From a virus, in UHGV virus genome UHGV-0346646: a stretch of DNA of 11,385 nucleotides, one strand, 5' to 3'. Positions within the stretch are counted from its first letter, which is position 1; every line of letters begins with the position of its first letter. Of this stretch, positions 1,614-8,665 are shown in pieces. Made by a program: the position numbers and the translations under genes. The notes beneath the pieces are model-generated. The model did not search any database. It was not told where the DNA came from and saw only the letters and a list, made by a program, of their open reading frames with translations.

Positions 1614-1833
1614 GTACCCCTCCGCATTTTTTTTCGTTAGAAATAAGCGTTCTTCTTTCCTGTTCATCGCTCAGGAATACGCAGACCTCACCGCTAAGGC
1701 GTTTAAGTAAGCCGATGATTGCCCCTGATTCGCTGTCGGTCATCATGCCAGGGTAATCCTCTGCCAGTGCGCAAATAACTTCGATTTGGTGGGCGCGTTC
1801 TGCTGCCTGTTGTAGTGTGATTTCCTGGCTCAT
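1603..1833 (-). CDS. hypothetical protein (76 aa)
   Basis: ATG at 1833-1831 overlaps the stop of the upstream gene (ATGA); GGGGG upstream. Confidence 0.45.
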   Translation of the reverse strand: MSQEITLQQAAERAHQIEVICALAEDYPGMMTDSESGAIIGLLKRLSGEVCVFLSDEQERRTLISNEKKCGGVHVQ

Positions 1834-2030
1834 AAGCCTACCCCCTGACGAATACGGGCAGCAAATACCATCACGCAGCCAGCCGGAGATTGCTGGCGTG
1901 CTTCCTGTTCGCTGGTGGCCTCAATGGTAATCACGCGCGGTTGTGCCGTGCTCAGGGCGATAAAACGCCAGATGTATTTATTCAGGTTGTGCGAGTCCCG
2001 CCCTTGCGGGTGTGTGGTATGATTTAACAT
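1830..2030 (-). CDS. small protein (66 aa), possibly Icd-like; family assignment is tentative
   Basis: ATG at 2030-2028 with GAGG 5-6 nt upstream; first gene of the minus-strand operon, downstream of a strong predicted promoter. It is also the C-terminal 66 codons of the long track ORF 1830..3116, which I consider a read-through artefact. Confidence 0.5.
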   Translation of the reverse strand: MLNHTTHPQGRDSHNLNKYIWRFIALSTAQPRVITIEATSEQEARQQSPAGCVMVFAARIRQGVGL

Positions 2031-2067
2031 AGCTACCTCGATACTTTCGCTATCGTTGGTGGTTAGA

Positions 2068-2100
2068 AGCCCTGCGAGTGGTAACGACACTTGCGGGGCT
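2068..2100. promoter_or_regulatory. 13-bp-arm inverted repeat (AGCCCTGCGAGTG / CACTTGCGGGGCT, 7-nt loop) in the leader of the minus-strand operon
   Basis: Read directly: the arms pair fully if two G-U wobbles are allowed. Sits between the predicted minus-strand promoter and the start at 2030. Confidence 0.4.
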
Positions 2101-2127
2101 TTGCATTTATGCACCTTGATAATCTCA

Positions 2128-2168
2128 AGGTGTAGCCCACTATATGCTTTAGGTGTGGCCCACGTCAA
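2128..2168 (-). promoter_or_regulatory. predicted sigma70 promoter for the minus-strand small-gene operon, overlapped by two direct repeats (AGGTGTAGCCCAC 2128-2140 and AGGTGTGGCCCAC 2151-2163)
   Basis: On the minus strand: -35 TTGACG (2168-2163), 18-bp spacer, -10 TATAGT (2144-2139). The direct repeats overlap the spacer and the start site, as operator sites would. Confidence 0.4.
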
Positions 2169-2170
2169 GG

Positions 2171-2199
2171 GTTTTATTTGTGCTTTTTCTGTGTATACT
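2171..2199 (+). promoter_or_regulatory. possible promoter for the ribbon-helix-helix gene
   Basis: -10 TATACT at 2194-2199; the -35 is weak (GTTTTA region). Divergent from the minus-strand promoter. Confidence 0.3.
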
Positions 2200-2229
2200 G
2201 TCCCCCACCAATCCAACAGAGGAATAGAA

Positions 2230-2409
2230 ATGGCAACGGGTACAACAAACGCAAAATCACAAGCTCTAAAGGCTCGTGTACCACACGAAATAGTAAACGC
2301 CATGGAATCAGTGAAAGAATCAGGCGAAAGCACATCACAATTCATCATTGCGTCAATGCAAGGCGAGATCAAACGCCGCCAGCGCCGCAAGGCCAAAGAG
2401 CAGGAGTAA
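2230..2409 (+). CDS. ribbon-helix-helix (Arc/MetJ/CopG-like) DNA-binding protein, 59 aa
   Basis: ATG at 2230 with AGAGGAA Shine-Dalgarno. Protein MATGTTNAKSQALKARVPHEIVNAMESVKESGESTSQFIIASMQGEIKRRQRRKAKEQE has the strand-helix-helix pattern typical of RHH repressors. Followed by tandem plus-strand terminators. Confidence 0.6.
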   Translation: MATGTTNAKSQALKARVPHEIVNAMESVKESGESTSQFIIASMQGEIKRRQRRKAKEQE

Positions 2410-2466
2410 CCATCACCAGCGCCGTGGTGTGAGTAACTACGGCGCATTGCTATGCAGGACAACACA

Positions 2467-2640
2467 ATGACCGATAAAGAATTGACCAAAACATTATCAC
2501 CGGCACGGAAAAGACGGCGCAGAAAGATAGAGCATGAATCAGAAAGATTCGCGCCATGTGCTTTTGCCCTTGAGCAATTCCTTAAAGAGTACAGGGAAAA
2601 GCGCTCATTGCAGGTATGGCAACGAACTGAACCTGACTGA
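2467..2640 (+). CDS. possible small basic protein (57 aa)
   Basis: ATG at 2467 with a weak AGGA upstream; Lys/Arg-rich (SPARKRRRRK). Lies between the RHH gene and the plus-strand terminators. Weakly supported. Confidence 0.3.
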   Translation: MTDKELTKTLSPARKRRRRKIEHESERFAPCAFALEQFLKEYREKRSLQVWQRTEPD

Positions 2641-2719
2641 TTGCATTGCCCACCAGCCGCAAATGTGGCATTGTTGGCAATGCTCATGCGTTGGGGATAA
2701 CGTGTAGCTTGTGTCGAGG

Positions 2720-2748
2720 GGCCACCGTAGCGGGTGGCCTTTGTTTTG
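2720..2748 (+). terminator. rho-independent terminator
   Basis: Stem GGCCACC / GGTGGCC with loop GTAGCG, followed by TTTGTTTTG. Confidence 0.6.
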
Positions 2749-2843
2749 CCCGTTATTCGGCAATTGTGGCGCTTCTCCACATGGTTGATATAATCCCACT
2801 GCTCAGATTCATTTTTTGCGCAGTAGGTTAATTGTTCACAAAG

Positions 2844-2877
2844 GCGCTCCGGCAACGGGGCGCTTTTTGTTTTTATT
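2844..2877 (+). terminator. rho-independent terminator (second of a tandem pair)
   Basis: Stem GCGCTCCG / CGGGGCGC (one G-U) with loop GCAA, followed by TTTTTGTTTTTATT. Confidence 0.6.
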
Positions 2878-2882
2878 AGTTT

Positions 2883-3116
2883 GTAGAAACCTGACTCAGA
2901 GATAATGCTCATATTCTGATTGCCGTCAGGGGTGTAAGTTAAATTTACTCCCTTTTTATCATCAAACATCTGCAACGCTCTGGCGTTAACAATATTGGTT
3001 TCACTCCCGCCAGTAAGGCCGGAAATAACCGGAATAATTTCGGCAAAATTTTGCAGATTCTGTTTTTCAGGACGAACGAAGCCCCGCCCTTGTTCGGGAG
3101 AATATCCAGTATTCAT
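2883..3116 (-). CDS. BRO-N / antirepressor-like N-terminal domain ORF, probably truncated or degenerate
   Basis: First ~78 codons of track ORF 1830..3116 (…DDKKGVNLTYTPDGNQNMSIISESGFYKLI) resemble the C-terminal half of a BRO-N domain from memory. The similarity ends where the plus-strand terminator at 2844-2877 is encoded; the remaining ~350 codons have Cys/Trp/Arg-rich antisense-like composition. True end unknown. Confidence 0.3.
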
Positions 3117-3357: not shown

Positions 3358-3640
3358 AATTCCCCCTTTGTTGTTTCTTAAAGAGTCATTGGGTGGATTA
3401 TTGGGTTGGGTTGTGTCGGATTGTGTCAGGGTGTTTGTGGAATGGCAAACACTGGCGGCGGTCGTTTTACAGAAGCAGGGGAAATGAGAATAAAAACTCT
3501 TTTAATTCATTATGATGCAAAGGCATAAAATTTTACTTTTACGCCTTTTTTACATATTTTTAAGAGTGATTCGCCAGTGTATAAAAAAACAGTACACCTA
3601 TAAAAATCAAATGGTTATTACGATGGCTGATTTTTAACCC

Positions 3641-3700
3641 GTTGTTCCATTTTGTTCCTTGTTGTTCGTCGTTGTGTCTCGTTGTTTCACGTTGTCCGCA
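3641..3700. repeat. cluster of short direct repeats (CGTTGTT/CGTTGTC units) between the integrase and alpA
   Basis: Read directly: gttgttccattttgttccttgttgttcgtcgttgtgtctcgttgtttcacgttgtcc. Related TTGTGTC units occur at 3400-3440. Confidence 0.5.
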
Positions 3701-5009: not shown

Positions 5010-5206
5010 AAAGGGCTACAACGTGAAACAAGCTGGAACAAGGAAAATCACAAATCTGTTTATAATCAAAAACATAATGAACAACCTGAAACATTATGAA
5101 ACGGCAAAAAACACTAATTGATAAAATATGTCCTTTTATCACTACATCAAGGCAAGCCATTGATTTAATTAAATGATTTGCACTGCAAAAAGTGCTAAAA
5201 ATCGCA

Positions 5207-5515: not shown

Positions 5516-5684
5516 GAATCAACGGGTTAGGCCTTAATGGGCTGCGTGGTAATTATCAGCATCCAGAATATGACGGGTTATGTTTCCGACCTCTTCAATT
5601 TGAGGTTCCCGAAAATATCAACGGGTTAGGCTGGTTTCCCCGATGTTCGCCGCTGGCGAATTTCGAAAATATCAACCAGTTACC
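5516..5684. repeat. three direct repeats of an ATCAAC(G/C)(G/A)GTTA(G/C)(G/C) unit (5516-5533, 5608-5632, 5662-5684)
   Basis: gaatcaacgggttaggcc; cccgaaaatatcaacgggttaggct; ttcgaaaatatcaaccagttacc. The last copy overlaps the stop of the 93-aa gene. Confidence 0.5.
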
Positions 5685-5961
5685 GCCGCAACCGCTCCGG
5701 CTTCTTCCAGTGGTACGTAATTTTCTCCGTTTCCCGATACAGTGCCACGCGGCGATTGTAGGCCAGCATTTCAAGAACGCGGATCCGTATGTTGCGCATA
5801 TCCACATCATTAAGCTGGATACCATTACGGCGAATCACCTCAGCAACCACACGAACATAATTTTCGGCGGTCACGCTGTCCGGCTGCGTGGTCTGTTCGT
5901 CGGCCTGCTGGCTGATTCCGGCAACGCGGCGGATTAATCGCAGTATTTCGGCTTCTGTCAT
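5680..5961 (-). CDS. hypothetical protein (93 aa), last gene of the packaging-side module
   Basis: ATG at 5961-5959 with GGGGG 5 nt upstream; the track ORF 5680..6159 extends upstream through the cos copy and is not credible there. Protein MTEAEILRLIRRVAGISQQ… has no recognised motif. Confidence 0.5.
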   Translation of the reverse strand: MTEAEILRLIRRVAGISQQADEQTTQPDSVTAENYVRVVAEVIRRNGIQLNDVDMRNIRIRVLEMLAYNRRVALYRETEKITYHWKKPERLRR

Positions 5962-5994
5962 TGTGCCCCCATCGTTCTGATAGTCTGGTGTCGT

Positions 5995-6066
5995 CGGGTC
6001 CTTCCTGGAATTATGGCCCGTTACGGGGCGGCGACCTCGCGCGTTTTCACTATTTATGAAAATTTT
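5995..6066 (+). other. lambda-type cos site, copy 1 (cosN with cohesive-end sequence GGGCGGCGACCT at 6026-6037)
   Basis: gttacgGGGCGGCGACCTcgcgcgttttcactatttatgaaaattttt is near-identical to the lambda genome junction (…GTTACG / GGGCGGCGACCTCGCGGGTTTTCGCTATTTATGAAAATTTTCCGG) as I remember it. Confidence 0.75.
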
Positions 6067-6075
6067 TCGGGATCC

Positions 6076-6172
6076 ATGTCCGGTTTCTCTGCAAGTTAAC
6101 CATATGAAAAATATAAAAACATGCTTTCCATGAACCGGACATGCGCAAAAAACAGACACTAAAACCGGACAT
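6076..6172 (+). promoter_or_regulatory. cosB-like repeats: ATGTCCGGTT (6076-6085, inverted), AT-rich spacer, AACCGGACAT (6134-6143) and AACCGGACAT (6163-6172)
   Basis: One inverted plus two direct 10-bp sites with an A/T-rich stretch between the inverted pair, paralleling lambda cosB (R3 - IHF site I1 - R2 - R1). Lies directly after cosN copy 1. Confidence 0.5.
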
Positions 6173-6240
6173 CGAACCAGTTAACCGAAAGTGTGCACAA
6201 ATCACATGCATTGCTGCGAGTGATTAACAAGTTATCGGCT

Positions 6241-6675
6241 TTACTGTTCTGTATCGGCTGATTGCTCCATGCTGGCACGGCGAACGCTTACGGCATGACG
6301 CCACCCAGCCAGAAAGCCAGCCATTTTATTTCGTGCCTTGCTCACATCTTCCGGTGAATAGCCGTAAATCTGCAAACCTTCATCAAATCGATGTTCTGTT
6401 TCTTCACTGGAGTACTCGTCACGCTCAGATGAAAGCAGCCTGGCAAACATAATTTTTTCCAGCGCACTGGTTTCTACGTGATATCTGATGGCCTCAAGAC
6501 GGCTTTTACCTGAAGACCAAAGCAATGTATGCCCGATGTGATAACCGCCAGACTTTCCGCGATCCGCATTAAGATACGGCATCCCCTGTTTGGTCCATGC
6601 GCGAATAGTGGTTCTGTTAACCTTGAAATGTTCAGCTATTTCCTGCTGACTTACAAAACAAGCTTTATCAATCAT
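6241..6675 (-). CDS. lambda Nu1-like small terminase-type protein (N-terminal winged-HTH DNA-binding domain), 144 aa
   Basis: ATG at 6675. N-terminus VSQQEIAEHFKVNRTTIRAWTKQGMPYLNADRGKSGGYHIGHTLLW aligns by eye with lambda Nu1 KKQLADIFGASIRTIQNWQEQGMPVLRGGGKGNEVLYDSAAVIKW. Shorter than Nu1 (181 aa). Lies about 90 bp downstream (minus strand) of cosN copy 2. Confidence 0.7.
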   Translation of the reverse strand: MIDKACFVSQQEIAEHFKVNRTTIRAWTKQGMPYLNADRGKSGGYHIGHTLLWSSGKSRLEAIRYHVETSALEKIMFARLLSSERDEYSSEETEHRFDEGLQIYGYSPEDVSKARNKMAGFLAGWRHAVSVRRASMEQSADTEQ

Positions 6676-6744
6676 AATGTTACCTTAACTGCATGGTTAA
6701 ATATTAATCAAGTGGTGGTGGTGTCACCTTCACGGAAAAACGTC

Positions 6745-6807
6745 ATAAATAGCGAAAACCCGCGAGGTCGCCGCCCCGTAACGGGCCATAATTCCAGGAA
6801 GGACCCG
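6745..6807 (-). other. lambda-type cos site, copy 2, inverted relative to copy 1 (cohesive-end sequence at 6765-6776 read on the minus strand)
   Basis: Reverse complement reads cgggtccttcctggaattatggcccgttacgGGGCGGCGACCTcgcgggttttcgctatttatg; 47 bp are identical to copy 1 and about 70 bp match with two mismatches. Confidence 0.75.
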
Positions 6808-6808
6808 T

Positions 6809-6830
6809 AAAAAAGCCGGATTTCTCCGGC
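6809..6830 (-). terminator. rho-independent terminator ending the capsid operon
   Basis: Minus-strand hairpin GCCGGA-GAAA-TCCGGC followed by TTTTTT, just after the stop at 6837. Confidence 0.65.
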
Positions 6831-6836
6831 CTTGTC

Positions 6837-7250
6837 TCAGATGGTTTTCAGTATGCGATCGATGTCGCCGTCATCGCCCTGGTTTCTGCCATCGTATGCC
6901 ATGCCAGCTGATACGGCTTGCGGGCTGTGCATGTCCATAAAGTTTTCAAAGGCTGCGGTAAGCTCTGGTGCAACCTTTGGGCGCTCCTGCTCTATGGTCA
7001 TGTTCAGGATTTCACGAGCATTATCGACGCTAATACATGGCACGTTTGCCATTGCACGTAACAGCGGCTGATAGTCTTTATGCTCATGAAGCGCCATAAT
7101 CGCATCAGCGCGCGGCTTGTCCTGCTCTTCCAGTTTGTTTAGTTGATATACGGCCTCATAGGTTGATAAACCTCTGTCAGCCATTGCCCGCGCTTCGGCT
7201 TTAAATTTACTCGCCAGCGGTAGCGTCATGATGCTTTCATTCGTTGCCAT
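6837..7250 (-). CDS. hypothetical protein (137 aa), last gene of the capsid operon; possible scaffold-like or capsid accessory protein (speculative)
   Basis: ATG at 7250 with GGGGG 5 nt upstream; predicted helix-rich and acidic. Function not recognised. Confidence 0.55.
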   Translation of the reverse strand: MATNESIMTLPLASKFKAEARAMADRGLSTYEAVYQLNKLEEQDKPRADAIMALHEHKDYQPLLRAMANVPCISVDNAREILNMTIEQERPKVAPELTAAFENFMDMHSPQAVSAGMAYDGRNQGDDGDIDRILKTI

Positions 7251-7262
7251 CGTTCCCCCTGC

Positions 7263-7598
7263 TTATCGGGCCAGCGGCTGAACGGATACGCCGGAACCCG
7301 CAAAGGCGGCGCATTTTTTCGCATCGGTGTCGACGCTCTCAGGCCAGTTAACGGCGGCAATATTGAATATCCCCGTCTTGTAACACTGTGCTGATTTCTG
7401 CTTTGACGTGTCCACAGGGTACGAGGTCAGATAAACAGCCTTGCCAGATTCCTGACCATCCCACGGCTTAAACTCGCCATTGTCCGCCAGCATCAGCGGG
7501 GTAAATTCCTGAATAACGCCAGCATCAGCGGCAAAATGTACCAGCGTCGTGGCGACCTGCTGACTGCCTGCAAATAACTCAATGTATGGAGTGTCCAT
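7263..7598 (-). CDS. head decoration protein, lambda gpD family
   Basis: TPLMLADNGEFKPWDG…YKTGIFNIAAVNWPES…AKKCAAFAGSGVSV aligns by eye with lambda gpD TPLMLDTSSRKLVAWDG…YKSGTFRYEDVLWPEA…TKKRTAFAGTAISI. Similar length (111 vs 110 aa). GGGGG Shine-Dalgarno. Confidence 0.8.
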   Translation of the reverse strand: MDTPYIELFAGSQQVATTLVHFAADAGVIQEFTPLMLADNGEFKPWDGQESGKAVYLTSYPVDTSKQKSAQCYKTGIFNIAAVNWPESVDTDAKKCAAFAGSGVSVQPLAR

Positions 7599-7609
7599 AG
7601 AATCCCCCG

Positions 7610-8665
7610 TTAACCAATTTTGACGGTAACAAATTTGCGAATATCTGCCGGAACCGGCTGCGGTGCGCTGTGCGTCTGCACGTACTCAATCGCCGGATCG
7701 CCGTCCTCAATCCAGTTTTTCGGGTAAAACATGTTTTGCGTTGCGCCCGTTCTTACTGCGTCCTGATCCATAATCGCACCATAGGCCACCAGCCCTTTAT
7801 TGTTGGTGTTGCCCAGGACAAGCAAATCAGGCTCAAGGAAATATTTTTCTGTGCCGTCGCTGTCAGTGTATTTGCCGGAATAGACGATAAGGGCAATATC
7901 GCCCAGATAGCCTTTAAAGCTCACCACTTCGCCCAGGTTTTTACAGGCCAGCTCTGCGGCGGACTCTGAACCACGGGAAAGATCGTACAGCTCACGGAAT
8001 TTTTTAAAGCTGCGTAACGTTCGCCATACCTCAGCGCCCATAATCATGACGTTTGCGGGGCAACCAGCCTGATCGGCGTATAGTTCGATATCATAGATTG
8101 GATCGTGGGTTTCTTTGTCCTGCTCTGACCATTTTTTCCCGTCGGCCTGCTCTATGATGTTTTTTTCCGGTATCTTCCAGTCGATTTCATAGCGCTCTAT
8201 GCCTTCGCCTTCAATGATGTTTTTTCCGGTCGTTACCGCATTTACCGCCAGCCATTCCACGCGCGCTTTTATGGCGTTTATCTGGCGGCGCATATTGCCA
8301 GTAATCAGGCGCATACGGCGATAGGTAGGGTCGTTAAGCTGTGCCGGATCTTCTCCAGCCATGCGCATGATGGTTTTCGTTGGATCGATTTCGTGCTTTG
8401 GCTTCATGTAGCCAGGTTTAATCGTGCTGGTTTCGTACCCTTTATCGCGCTGAACCTGGCTACCCACCATAGGCGAACAAAACGCCGACATGGTGACTTC
8501 TTCAATGTCCAGGGTATCCAGCATGATGTTTTGCGTGCTGAATGTCGCCACGTTCGGGAAAAACAGCGTGGTAAACAGCGGACTGAATTTAAATTCCGCA
8601 ATATCCCCGCGATTCAGGTACGCAAAAAGCTGGTTAGTGTTAAGTGCCATTGCTTTTACTGTCAT
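7610..8665 (-). CDS. major capsid protein, lambda gpE family
   Basis: 351 aa with FKFSPLFTTLFF, PGYMKPKHE, DPTYRRMR, SFKGYLGDIALIVYSG, YPKNW and GDPAIE motifs matching lambda gpE (FKFDPLFLRLFF, PGYVKPKHE, DPAYRRRR, SYKGMYGDVAIVVYSG, YPKNW, GDPARE) at the same relative positions. Confidence 0.9.
   Translation of the reverse strand: MTVKAMALNTNQLFAYLNRGDIAEFKFSPLFTTLFFPNVATFSTQNIMLDTLDIEEVTMSAFCSPMVGSQVQRDKGYETSTIKPGYMKPKHEIDPTKTIMRMAGEDPAQLNDPTYRRMRLITGNMRRQINAIKARVEWLAVNAVTTGKNIIEGEGIERYEIDWKIPEKNIIEQADGKKWSEQDKETHDPIYDIELYADQAGCPANVMIMGAEVWRTLRSFKKFRELYDLSRGSESAAELACKNLGEVVSFKGYLGDIALIVYSGKYTDSDGTEKYFLEPDLLVLGNTNNKGLVAYGAIMDQDAVRTGATQNMFYPKNWIEDGDPAIEYVQTHSAPQPVPADIRKFVTVKIG

What the first reader, a model, noticed from the sequence alone, without database searches (positions are those of the whole stretch)
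5995..6817. Two inverted copies of a lambda-type cosN flank a Nu1-like gene
GGGCGGCGACCT with lambda-like flanks occurs at 6026-6037 (plus) and 6765-6776 (minus), forming a ~70-bp inverted repeat around a 700-bp segment that holds the Nu1-like gene. A single cos is the norm for cos-packaged genomes. Two opposed cos sites could allow packaging initiation in either direction, act as a decoy for helper terminase, or support inversion of the intervening segment by recombination.
Basis: partly seen in the sequence, partly recalled or inferred. Interest (0 to 1): 0.85.

Follow-up and report, generated by a model that had tools for sequence, protein, structure and literature searches.

The report
Known PICI double cos site, flippable
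The two opposed lambda-type cos sites around a Nu1-like gene are the already published cos1, cos2 and rppA of an E. coli phage-satellite island (EcCICFT073 family); comparison with other genomes adds that cos2 is a near-exact copy of another prophage family's packaging site and that the segment between the two sites is flipped in some natural strains.

Summary
Window 5995-6072 and 6730-6807 form a 78-nt, 91% inverted repeat. Each arm carries lambda-like cosQ, a perfect cosN (GGGCGGCGACCT) and I2.

The feature is already known. The window is the whole 11,385-bp excised-circle form of an EcCICFT073-family PICI. The minus-strand copy is the published cos1, which is Rpp-dependent and essential for transfer. 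The plus-strand copy is the published cos2. The gene between them is rppA (c1503), a TerS mimic rather than a terminase.

I found three points in none of the papers I could search:
- **Origin of cos2.** Its cosB side is 99/100 identical to the cosB of PhiR12-type lambdoid phages, with three R-like repeats at the same offsets. Related islands carry other prophage-derived cassettes at this position. The cosB core of cos1 is PICI-specific and invariant.
- **Arm recombination.** The arms show gene conversion. The 813-bp segment is cleanly inverted in 15 complete E. coli genomes, which look like one clone. Derivatives without rpp, carrying two phage-type cos sites, also exist.
- **Conservation.** The convergent layout is kept even in islands with a different cosN type.

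Best model: cos1 is the Rpp-dependent route and cos2 is a captured helper-cognate cos, so the island has two packaging routes. Inversion is a rare by-product, not a switch. Novelty: already known. Interest: moderate.

The parts
5995..6072 (+). Left inverted-repeat arm: the cosQ-cosN-I2 part of published cos2
   Evidence: The sequence continues as in published 'EcCICFT073 cos2' (GGGATCCATGTCCGGTTTCTCTGCAAGTTAAC).
6026..6037 (+). cosN of cos2 (GGGCGGCGACCT)
   Evidence: 12/12 identical to lambda.
6073..6172 (+). cosB of cos2, a captured phage cosB. Three R-like repeats ATGTCCGGTT lie at 6076-6085 (+), 6133-6142 (-) and 6163-6172 (-).
   Evidence: Three exact copies against 0.04 expected. Identity is 99/100 to PhiR12_1 phage and 88/100 to the EDL933 prophage over +48..+147, with repeats at identical offsets (+51, +110, +140) and random identity beyond +148. 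In those phages the segment lies directly upstream of a Nu1-type terS.
6241..6675 (-). rppA (c1503), encoding the redirecting-phage-packaging protein Rpp, a mimic of the TerS DNA-binding domain
   Evidence: PDB RppC 6hlk, E=5e-31. The first 50 aa equal RppA in Fig. S1 of PMC6739421. HM670, whose 5600-7300 stretch is 100% identical to the window, carries the same protein accession (WP_000565609.1) as CFT073. No Phage_Nu1 domain.
6704..6724 (-). Core of the cos1 cosB (the proposed R3-PICI): ACACCACCACCACTTGATTAA at +53..+73 from the cos1 cosN
   Evidence: Invariant in all Rpp loci aligned, including those with another cosN type and a 70%-identical Rpp. No counterpart in the phage collection. Matches the R3-PICI proposal at bp 48-65 in PMC9026076.
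6730..6807 (-). Right inverted-repeat arm: the cosQ-cosN-I2 part of published cos1, which is Rpp-dependent and essential for transfer
   Evidence: On the minus strand it runs into ATGATTGATAAAGC, the rppA start, exactly as published 'cos1' does.
6765..6776 (-). cosN of cos1
5995..6807 (.). Naturally invertible 813-bp segment (both arms, both cosB regions and rppA). The exchange lies within the 47-nt perfectly identical cosQ-cosN core, 5995-6041 / 6761-6807.
   Evidence: The synthetic flipped junction matches at 100% over 453 nt in 15 genomes. In L032 the 813 nt map 100% in reverse while the flanks stay collinear. After de-inversion only 1 SNP remains in 2674 nt. The identical Rpp protein lies on the opposite strand.
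6809..6833 (-). Intrinsic terminator (hairpin plus U6) ending the capsid-decoration-orf137 transcription unit, abutting the cosQ of cos1
   Evidence: strand folding: -18.3 kcal/mol, z = -3.4.
5680..5961 (-). orf93, a conserved hypothetical gene flanking cos2. It is the last gene before the att junction.
   Evidence: Annotated in HM670 and CFT073. No Pfam or NCBIfam hit.
6837..7250 (-). orf137, the conserved gene flanking cos1. Some records annotate it as a head-tail connector.
   Evidence: No Pfam hit.
5124..5133 (+). att core (AAATATGTCC) at the circular junction 5133|5134. The window is the excised, circularly permuted island.
   Evidence: Window = HM670 L001 17787-22919 + 11535-17786, with 10 mismatches in 11,385 nt. 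The 10-nt repeat is present at both chromosomal ends.

Best explanation
The window is the complete excised-circle form of an EcCICFT073-family phage-inducible chromosomal island (PICI).

**Shown here or published.**
- The minus-strand cos (cosN 6765-6776) is the published cos1. It sits just upstream of rppA, as lambda cos sits upstream of Nu1.
- cos1 has lambda-like cosQ, cosN and I2 but a PICI-specific cosB core (ACACCACCACC...).
- Published genetics show that Rpp heterodimerises with the helper's TerS. This blocks recognition of the phage cosB and redirects terminase to cos1, which is required for transfer.
- The plus-strand cos (cosN 6026-6037) is the published cos2. It works as a cos when cloned, is not stimulated by Rpp, and its deletion raises transfer by lambda.
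- cos2 is a near-exact copy of the cos of a common family of lambdoid prophages (PhiR12 / O157-prophage type), including three R-type repeats at the phage's own offsets. The copy ends just before the point where the phage terS would start.
- Related islands carry different prophage-derived cassettes at the same position.
- The arms have undergone gene conversion, and one clean inversion is found in natural genomes.

**Inferred.**
- cos2 is recognised directly by the cognate TerS of that prophage family. That gives the island a second, Rpp-independent packaging route and a wider helper range.
- The convergent orientation is the arrangement in which two cos sites can coexist. Lambda-type termination is polar (cosQ, then cosN, then I2), so a packaging run started at one site passes the other site backwards and ignores it. 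The unit genome stays intact.
- The recombination between the arms is a by-product of the 78-bp inverted homology.

**Confidence.** The 0.6 given applies to the whole model. Identity as EcCICFT073-type cos1, cos2 and rppA is about 0.97. The inferred Rpp-independent role of cos2 is about 0.55.
For: **Identity of the element.**
- The window is 97.7-98.9% identical to EcCICFT073 and about 99.9% to the HM670 island.
- The integrase, AlpA, D5_N primase and SSB hallmarks are all present.
- Rpp is identified by PDB RppC 6hlk at E=5e-31 and by the RppA sequence.
- The published cos1 and cos2 sequences map onto the two copies.
- Published function is summarised.

**cos2 is a phage cos.**
- Identity to PhiR12 cosB is 99/100, with repeats at +51, +110 and +140 in both. 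Homology ends at +148 and the phage terS ATG is at +196.
- 1,185 of 5,426 E. coli genomes match the cos2 cosB query. In the two hits inspected (PhiR12_1 and the EDL933 prophage) the match lies directly upstream of terS.
- That TerS has a divergent N-terminal DNA-binding domain and is 34% identical to Nu1 overall.
- The type II cassette is 91-92% identical to an O111 prophage cos that lies next to terS.
- The type III cassette includes 34 codons of a phage terS.

**cos1 is PICI-specific.** It has no phage match and its core is invariant across Rpp loci.

**The arrangement is conserved.** All 23 IMG/VR loci with Rpp at least 83% identical and both sides present keep it, including three with a different cosN type.

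**The arms recombine.**
Against: - No experiment has tested a PhiR12- or O157-type helper. Direct use of cos2 by that TerS is inference only.
- With the helpers that were tested (lambda and phi80), cos2 is dispensable and slightly harmful.
- The copy stops at +148 and so lacks a possible fourth, plus-oriented half-site (ATGACCGGTT) present in the phage. It may be functionally incomplete.
- If Rpp also binds the PhiR12-type TerS, it could block use of cos2.
- I did not measure whether these islands co-occur with type I prophages.
- The orientation argument rests on lambda knowledge recalled from memory (polar termination, deletions between tandem cos sites). It was not tested here.
Confidence: 0.6

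Rival explanations
1. cos2 is a non-adaptive relic. A past recombination with a helper phage left a second cos, which persists by hitch-hiking and has no role in island spread.
For: Deleting cos2 does not reduce transfer by lambda or phi80 and in fact raises it. RppA does not promote cos2 use. The copy is truncated at +148. In L006 and L008 the cos2 cosN carries one substitution.
Against: The convergent pair is kept in 23 of 23 IMG/VR loci, including lineages with another cosN type. The R repeats stay 99% identical to a live phage. At least three different prophage-derived cassettes occupy the same position. Islands that lost rpp kept two phage-type cos sites. A costly relic would be expected to decay or be lost.
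Confidence: 0.2
2. cos2 is an interference or decoy site. On the amplified island it titrates the cognate TerS-TerL of PhiR12/O157-type phages, or provokes unproductive cutting by them, so it protects the host or out-competes that phage rather than packaging the island.
For: cos2 is a perfect cognate target for a very common prophage family. It has a cost with non-cognate helpers, so some other benefit is needed.
Against: A complete cos with cosQ, cosN and I2 in a replicating concatemer should be packaged, not merely bound. Published interference maps entirely to Rpp. There are no data on cognate helpers.
Confidence: 0.12
3. The cos arms form a programmed invertible switch that toggles rppA/orf93 expression or the polarity of packaging.
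For: Both orientations exist in nature, with breakpoints inside the arms. After a flip, rppA faces away from orf93 and towards orf137. A terminator abuts cos1. Cutting both cos sites would release an interior fragment with two identical cohesive ends that could re-ligate either way (inference).
Against: No invertase gene is adjacent. Orientation is fixed within the flipped group: L037 and L038 differ by 2 nt in 23 kb, and all 15 share the allele. The other 64 complete genomes and all 24 IMG/VR loci are unflipped. Weak promoter-like sites upstream of rppA lie inside the segment, so expression need not change.
Confidence: 0.05
4. The repeat is an assembly artefact or a chance match.
For: None found.
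Against: Shuffles expect 0.09 cosN matches. The structure is identical in dozens of independently assembled complete genomes and contigs. Both sites are experimentally functional in EcCICFT073.
Confidence: 0.01

Closest known systems
EcCICFT073 cos1 / cos2 / RppA (Fillol-Salom et al. 2018 ISME J; 2019 Mol Cell)
   Same: It is the same element family (97.7-98.9% nucleotide identity) with an identical RppA protein. The two cos sites sit at the same positions and match the published cos1 and cos2 sequences.
   Different: In the window variant, the cosQ side of cos1 has been converted to the cos2 type. This lengthens the perfect inverted core from 25 to 47 nt. The papers draw the sites as unoriented boxes. 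They do not mention orientation, inversion or a phage source for the cos2 cosB.
Bacteriophage lambda cos (cosQ-cosN-I2-cosB with R3-I1-R2-R1)
   Same: Both copies share cosQ, an identical 12-nt cosN and I2 at lambda spacing. cos2 also has three R-type repeats near the lambda R offsets: +51, +110 and +140 against +53, +114 and +155.
   Different: The R sequences are unrelated to lambda's. The third cos2 repeat has the R2 orientation, not the R1 orientation. cos1 has only a single R3-like element, resembling N15 as noted in PMC9026076. Two sites in one genome is not the phage norm.
cos of PhiR12-type phages and O157:H7 (EDL933) lambdoid prophages
   Same: From cosN to +147, cos2 is essentially this phage family's cos: 99/100 identical in cosB.
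   Different: No terS follows in the island. Homology stops about 48 nt before the phage terS start. The cosQ-cosN spacer is island-type, at 25/35 identity.
SaPIbov4 / SaPIbov5 (cos-packaged staphylococcal islands)
   Same: They are satellites that carry helper-type cos sites. SaPIbov4 is reported to have two putative cos sites.
   Different: They are unrelated in sequence and have no Rpp. I did not examine the orientation or function of the SaPIbov4 pair.
Invertible DNA segments (Hin/Gin/Cin, fimS)
   Same: A short segment bounded by inverted repeats is found in both orientations.
   Different: There is no dedicated recombinase, the arms are packaging sites, and the orientation is stable within a clone. 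The resemblance is in anatomy only.

Membership tests
EcCICFT073-type Rpp/cos PICI | Tyrosine integrase at one end, with an att core repeated at both island ends | tested here: met
   Arm-DNA-bind_3 plus Phage_integrase domains. A 10-nt core, AAATATGTCC, is present at both chromosomal junctions and at window 5124-5133.
EcCICFT073-type Rpp/cos PICI | AlpA regulator and a primase/replication module | tested here: met
   Phage_AlpA at 9e-18; D5_N, DUF5906 and Pox_D5 primase domains; SSB.
EcCICFT073-type Rpp/cos PICI | An rpp gene encoding a mimic of the TerS DNA-binding domain | tested here: met
   RppC structure 6hlk at E=5e-31. HM670, identical to the window over this region, shares the CFT073 RppA accession.
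EcCICFT073-type Rpp/cos PICI | Lambda-like cosQ and cosN next to rpp, with a PICI-specific cosB in place of the helper's | tested here: met
EcCICFT073-type Rpp/cos PICI | Helper-induced excision, replication and Rpp-dependent packaging | not testable with these tools
   Published for EcCICFT073 only. The window's circular junction fits an excised form.
Complete lambda-type cos site | A 12-nt cosN with cosQ upstream and I2 downstream at lambda spacing | tested here: met
   Both copies: cosN 12/12, an ungapped alignment to lambda from cosQ through I2, and I2 at 29-30/35.
Complete lambda-type cos site | A cosB with several R repeats for a TerS | tested here: met
   Met for cos2 only: three exact repeats, identical to a phage cosB. 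cos1 has a single R3-like core. The I1 (IHF) site was not tested.
Small terminase (gpNu1 family), for the 'Nu1-like gene' | The Phage_Nu1 domain, including the C-terminal TerL-binding part | tested here: not met
   The 144-aa protein has no PF07471 hit, only weak HTH hits. The PhiR12 TerS scores 1e-18. The protein is 23% identical to Nu1 and lacks the C-terminal third.
Site-specific invertible switch (Hin/Gin/Fim type) | A dedicated invertase encoded in or beside the invertible segment | tested here: not met
   Only rppA lies inside the segment. The flanking orf93 and orf137 have no recombinase domains.
Site-specific invertible switch (Hin/Gin/Fim type) | Both orientations found among close relatives or within populations | tested here: inconclusive
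   Both orientations exist in nature. The flipped state is fixed in one clone-like group. Read-level heterogeneity could not be tested.

The most novel reading that the evidence does not exclude
The position of the second cos is a swappable helper-range cassette. Islands of this family capture the complete cos, including cosB, of whichever lambdoid prophage families are around. The window carries type I (PhiR12/O157-like), others carry type II (O111-like), and a third type still holds part of a phage terS. This lets the phage's own TerS package the island without Rpp, while cos1 plus Rpp handles TerS proteins that Rpp can bind. Recombination between the cosQ-cosN-I2 arms then homogenises, flips and reshuffles these cassettes. 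One outcome is islands without rpp that carry two phage-type cos sites. [quoted passage not shown]
Probability: 0.45. Interest if true: 0.65.

Novelty: already known. Interest (0 to 1): 0.42.

Why it matters
The feature as reported is a textbook trait of the best-studied Gram-negative PICI, so on its own it adds nothing new.

[quoted passage not shown] If that holds, these islands use two hijacking routes. One is Rpp-mediated redirection. The other is direct mimicry of the helper's cos. Helper range could then be read from the cos2 cassette type. That matters for predicting how virulence- and defence-carrying islands spread, and for engineering PICI-based delivery vehicles.

The natural flip and the rpp-less double-cos derivatives also show how packaging modules get rearranged.

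Tried and rejected
- **Genome-contig scan.** A scan for Rpp relatives returned nothing usable. 38 pattern hits came back and none was confirmed.
- **cos1 cosB side in phages.** The search found only a chance-level 42-nt hit. I take this to mean cos1 is PICI-specific.
- **Type II cassette in the curated phage set.** No real match there. It was found instead in prophages within E. coli genomes.
- **Literature on the PhiR12 phages.** Nothing relevant.
- **Promoter scan.** Only weak, near-background hits: 4 found against 2.1 expected. I draw no conclusion about rppA transcription after inversion. The scan also missed the clear terminator at 6809-6833, which I confirmed by folding.
- **NCBIfam.** No names for Rpp, orf93, orf137 or the phage TerS proteins.
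- **Fast phase-variable switch.** Considered and rejected. The flipped genomes share one chromosomal context and are near-identical, and every other locus is unflipped.
- **Capsid-size redirection.** The island's gpE and gpD homologues raised the possibility. The 2018 paper already tested c1499 and c1500 and found phage-sized packaged DNA.
- **H146 (strain ST130).** First counted as a flipped allele. It turned out to be an rpp-less double-cos variant at another integration site.
Full report

Yes. The repeat finder reports inverted arms at 5995-6072 and 6730-6807. They are 78 nt long, 91% complementary and 657 nt apart.

The lambda cohesive-end sequence GGGCGGCGACCT occurs exactly twice in the 11,385-nt window, at 6026-6037 (+) and 6765-6776 (-). 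Shuffles expect 0.09 matches, and 0 of 200 shuffles gave two.

I oriented both copies on cosN and compared them with lambda's joined ends. Both match lambda 12/12 in cosN, 22-25/35 on the cosQ side and 29-30/35 in the I2 region. There are no gaps from cosQ through I2. Identity falls to random (13/53) beyond +47, exactly where lambda's cosB begins.

**2. What is the window?**

Window 5600-7300 is 100% identical to several E. coli chromosomes, HM670 among them, and 97.7% identical to CFT073. Window 1-5133 matches the other end of the same island.

The window equals HM670 positions 17787-22919 followed by 11535-17786 of locus L001, with 10 mismatches. A 10-nt core, AAATATGTCC, is present at both chromosomal junctions. 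The window is therefore the whole 11,385-bp island in its excised, circular form, opened inside the primase gene. The att junction is at 5133|5134.

The island has a tyrosine integrase, AlpA, a D5_N-type primase and SSB. It also has gpE-like capsid and gpD-like decoration genes. It lies between phoQ and roxA in HM670. This is the EcCICFT073 family of phage-inducible chromosomal islands (PICIs).

**3. The finding is already published.**

Fillol-Salom et al. [quoted passage not shown] Their results were:
- each cloned site allows transduction of a plasmid;
- deleting cos1 strongly reduces island transfer;
- deleting cos2 raises it;
- deleting both abolishes it.

Fillol-Salom et al. 2019 (PMC6739421) showed that c1503 encodes RppA. 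RppA heterodimerises with helper TerS, blocks recognition of the phage cosB and directs terminase to the cosB of cos1. RppA does not promote cos2. [quoted passage not shown]

Their Fig. S1A/S5 sequences let me assign the two copies.
- Published cos1 runs into ATGATTGATAAAGC, the rpp start. It is the window's minus-strand copy.
- Published cos2 continues GGGATCCATGTCCGGTTTCTCTGCAAGTTAAC. It is the plus-strand copy.

The 144-aa ORF at 6241-6675 (-) hits the RppC crystal structure 6hlk at E=5e-31. HM670, whose sequence is identical to the window here, carries the same protein accession as CFT073. The protein lacks the Phage_Nu1 domain, so 'Nu1-like' is true only of its N-terminal winged HTH.

**4. 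What the literature I could search does not contain.**

Neither paper, nor their supplements, uses the words inverted, orientation or opposite for these sites. The maps show them as plain rectangles.

Only those two papers mention both EcCICFT073 and cos2. No paper combines 'phage-inducible chromosomal', 'cos site' and 'inversion'.

The Murialdo and Feiss 2022 review (PMC9026076) treats only the rpp-adjacent cos. It states that no repeated R sequences are present there, and it proposes a single R3-PICI at bp 48-65. The library lacks most subscription-journal papers, so this absence is not proof.

**5. cos2 is a captured phage cos.**

The cos2 cosB side (window 6060-6172) is 98% identical to five PhiR12-series phages. 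The same query matches 1,185 of 5,426 complete E. coli genomes, mostly at 80-90% identity; the EDL933 hit is 88.5% identical.

In PhiR12_1 and in the EDL933 prophage the segment lies directly upstream of a Nu1-type terS followed by terL.

| Segment (relative to cosN) | cos2 vs PhiR12 | cos2 vs EDL933 |
|---|---|---|
| cosN | 12/12 | 12/12 |
| I2 | 32/35 | 32/35 |
| +48..+147 | 99/100 | 88/100 |
| beyond +148 | 15/73 (random) | 15/73 (random) |

These values come and alignment A1. The phage terS ATG is at +196.

The repeat ATGTCCGGTT occurs three times in the window, against 0.04 expected. The offsets are +51 (+), +110 (-) and +140 (-), the same in island and phage. The lambda R cores lie at +53, +114 and +155.

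The cognate TerS is only 34% identical to Nu1 and has a divergent N-terminal DNA-binding domain. That implies a different cosB specificity.

By contrast, the cosB side of cos1 has no counterpart in 50,697 phage records. Its core, ACACCACCACCACTTGATTAA (window 6704-6724, minus strand), is invariant across all Rpp loci aligned. That includes loci with another cosN type and an Rpp only 70% identical. This fits the R3-PICI proposal.

**6. The cos2 position holds interchangeable cassettes.**

Among 25 IMG/VR loci encoding Rpp relatives, cos2 carries one of two cassettes in otherwise near-identical islands.
- Type I has the ATGTCCGG repeats.
- Type II has GGTTGTTGT repeats in a lambda-like forward, reverse, forward layout at about +52, +113 and +175.

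Type II is 77-92% identical to the segment just upstream of terS in an O111 prophage.

Strain Ch1 has a third cassette. It has a lambda/phi80-like cosB followed by the first 34 codons of a phage terS.

**7. The convergent pair is conserved.**

All 23 loci with Rpp at least 83% identical and both sides present have the pair.

Three of them (L024-L026) have a different cosN type, yet still show a 77-80-nt inverted repeat around rpp. The layout is therefore old and maintained.

One diverged relative (L027) has a single cos. It sits inside a prophage, with a Lambda_tail_I fragment right after rpp.

**8. The arms recombine.**

The cosQ side of cos1 occurs in two forms.
- Type A is found in CFT073 and most loci.
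- Type B is identical to cos2's. It occurs in the window, L005 and L022, and with a 1-nt shift in L004/L009 and L012.

This indicates gene conversion. It lengthens the perfect inverted core from 25 to 47 nt.

L023 and L034 carry the same variant cosN, GGGCGTCGACCT, in both copies.

I built the junction expected after a flip: window 5850-6037 joined to the reverse complement of 6500-6764. It matches at 100% over all 453 nt in 15 complete genomes. In contrast, 64 genomes have the native arrangement.

In WP4-S17-ESBL-08, window 5995-6807 maps 100% in reverse while both flanks stay collinear. The same Rpp protein lies on the opposite strand from orf93 and orf137. After in-silico de-inversion, only 1 SNP remains in 2,674 nt. 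The exchange must lie inside the 47-nt identical cosQ-cosN core.

The flipped genomes share one chromosomal context. L037 and L038 differ by 2 nt in 23 kb. Their island is a mosaic: the packaging module is 99.7-100% identical to the window, and the other modules are 91-94% identical.

All 24 IMG/VR loci are unflipped. The inversion therefore looks rare and stable, and does not behave like a switch.

Further rearranged derivatives exist in strains 135, SCU-172 and ST130. They have two convergent phage-type cos sites, with the type I cassette on the orf137 side. rpp is reduced to a 65-nt remnant or is absent.

**9. How it most likely works.**

Published experiments show that cos1 plus Rpp is the route that redirects lambda, phi80 and 21-type terminases.

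From points 5 to 7, I infer that cos2 is the cognate cos of another prophage family and is read directly by that family's TerS. That would be a second, Rpp-independent route that widens helper range.

The convergent orientation can be explained from lambda biology, which I recall from memory and did not test here. Packaging runs from cosN towards cosB. Termination needs cosQ, then cosN, then I2, met in that order. A run started at one site therefore meets the other site backwards and ignores it. Two direct sites would cause termination at the wrong site and gain or loss of the 740-bp interval.

With non-cognate helpers, stray cutting at cos2 would damage concatemers. That fits the published rise in transfer when cos2 is deleted.

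The inversion can come from homologous recombination across the 47-nt core. In principle it could also come from terminase cutting both sites. The interior fragment would then have two identical 5'-GGGCGGCGACCT ends and could re-anneal either way. The data cannot separate these two mechanisms.

**10. Verdict.**

The feature is already known (EcCICFT073 cos1, cos2 and rppA), so its novelty is low. Interest is moderate. The phage origin and cassette nature of cos2, and the natural inversion, were absent from the papers I could search. Together they make the discoverers' open question directly testable.

Noticed in passing
window 5124-5133 and junction 5133|5134; window ends 1 / 11385: The window is a circular permutation of the entire island, opened inside the primase gene. 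The attL/attR core AAATATGTCC is joined as in an excised circle.
   Followed up: yes
L034 1712-2372 (E. coli strain 135), L035 893-1554 (SCU-172), L039 about 11093-11751 (ST130): These related islands lack rpp; L034 and L035 keep a 65-nt 3' remnant. They have two convergent phage-type cos sites, with the type I cassette on the orf137 side. In L034 and L035 the left cassette is type II. The junction joins the antisense rpp 3' end to the sense rpp stop region, which suggests an illegitimate join between a native and a flipped allele.
   Followed up: partly
L036 934-1516 (E. coli strain Ch1): The cos2 position holds a third cassette: a lambda/phi80-like cosB plus the first 34 codons of a phage terS, fused to a reversed type I cosB. 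Both cosN copies are degenerate and orf93 is frameshifted, so the island is probably decaying.
   Followed up: partly
L024-L026, about 2857-2949 and 3601-3692: Rpp islands with Rpp about 83% identical carry a different cos type (..GAAACACCGGGGGTAnnnnTACGCGCAAAAACGCGCT). The centre of the presumed cosN differs between the two copies, so their cohesive ends would not be interchangeable.
   Followed up: no
L027 2898-4049 (59.8-kb IMG/VR contig): An Rpp relative 70% identical has a single cos upstream and no cos2 or orf93. A Lambda_tail_I fragment and a partial capsid E gene follow immediately. It looks like a helper-embedded PICI inside a prophage late region.
   Followed up: partly
L023 2900-2911 / 3659-3670; L034 1776-1787 / 2300-2311: The same cosN variant, GGGCGTCGACCT, is present in both copies of one island. 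This points to concerted evolution of the two sites or matching to a helper with that cosN. In L006 and L008 only cos2 is changed (GGGCGACGACCT).
   Followed up: no
window 6809-6833 (-): A strong intrinsic terminator (-18.3 kcal/mol, followed by U6) lies directly between orf137 and the cosQ of cos1. rppA is therefore probably transcribed separately from the capsid-decoration-orf137 unit. The consensus terminator scan missed it.
   Followed up: partly
window 7610-8665 (-) and 7263-7598 (-): These are lambda gpE-like major capsid (Pfam 2e-52) and gpD-like decoration (1e-17) genes in a satellite reported to be packaged in phage-sized capsids. The 2018 paper already noted them as c1499 and c1500 and found them not responsible for interference. 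Their role remains unexplained.
   Followed up: partly
window 1830-3116 (-): A 428-aa stop-free ORF spans the regulatory region. Only its last 66 codons, an Icd-like cell-division inhibitor, are annotated in reference genomes, and plus-strand genes lie inside the rest. It is probably a spurious long ORF.
   Followed up: no
L037/L038/L040 14777-15025 and island modules beyond the capsid gene: The flipped-allele island is a mosaic. Its packaging module is 99.7-100% identical to the window. Its replication, regulation and integrase modules are only 91-94% identical, and it has an extra PerC-family gene. Packaging modules seem to be exchanged between island backbones.
   Followed up: partly
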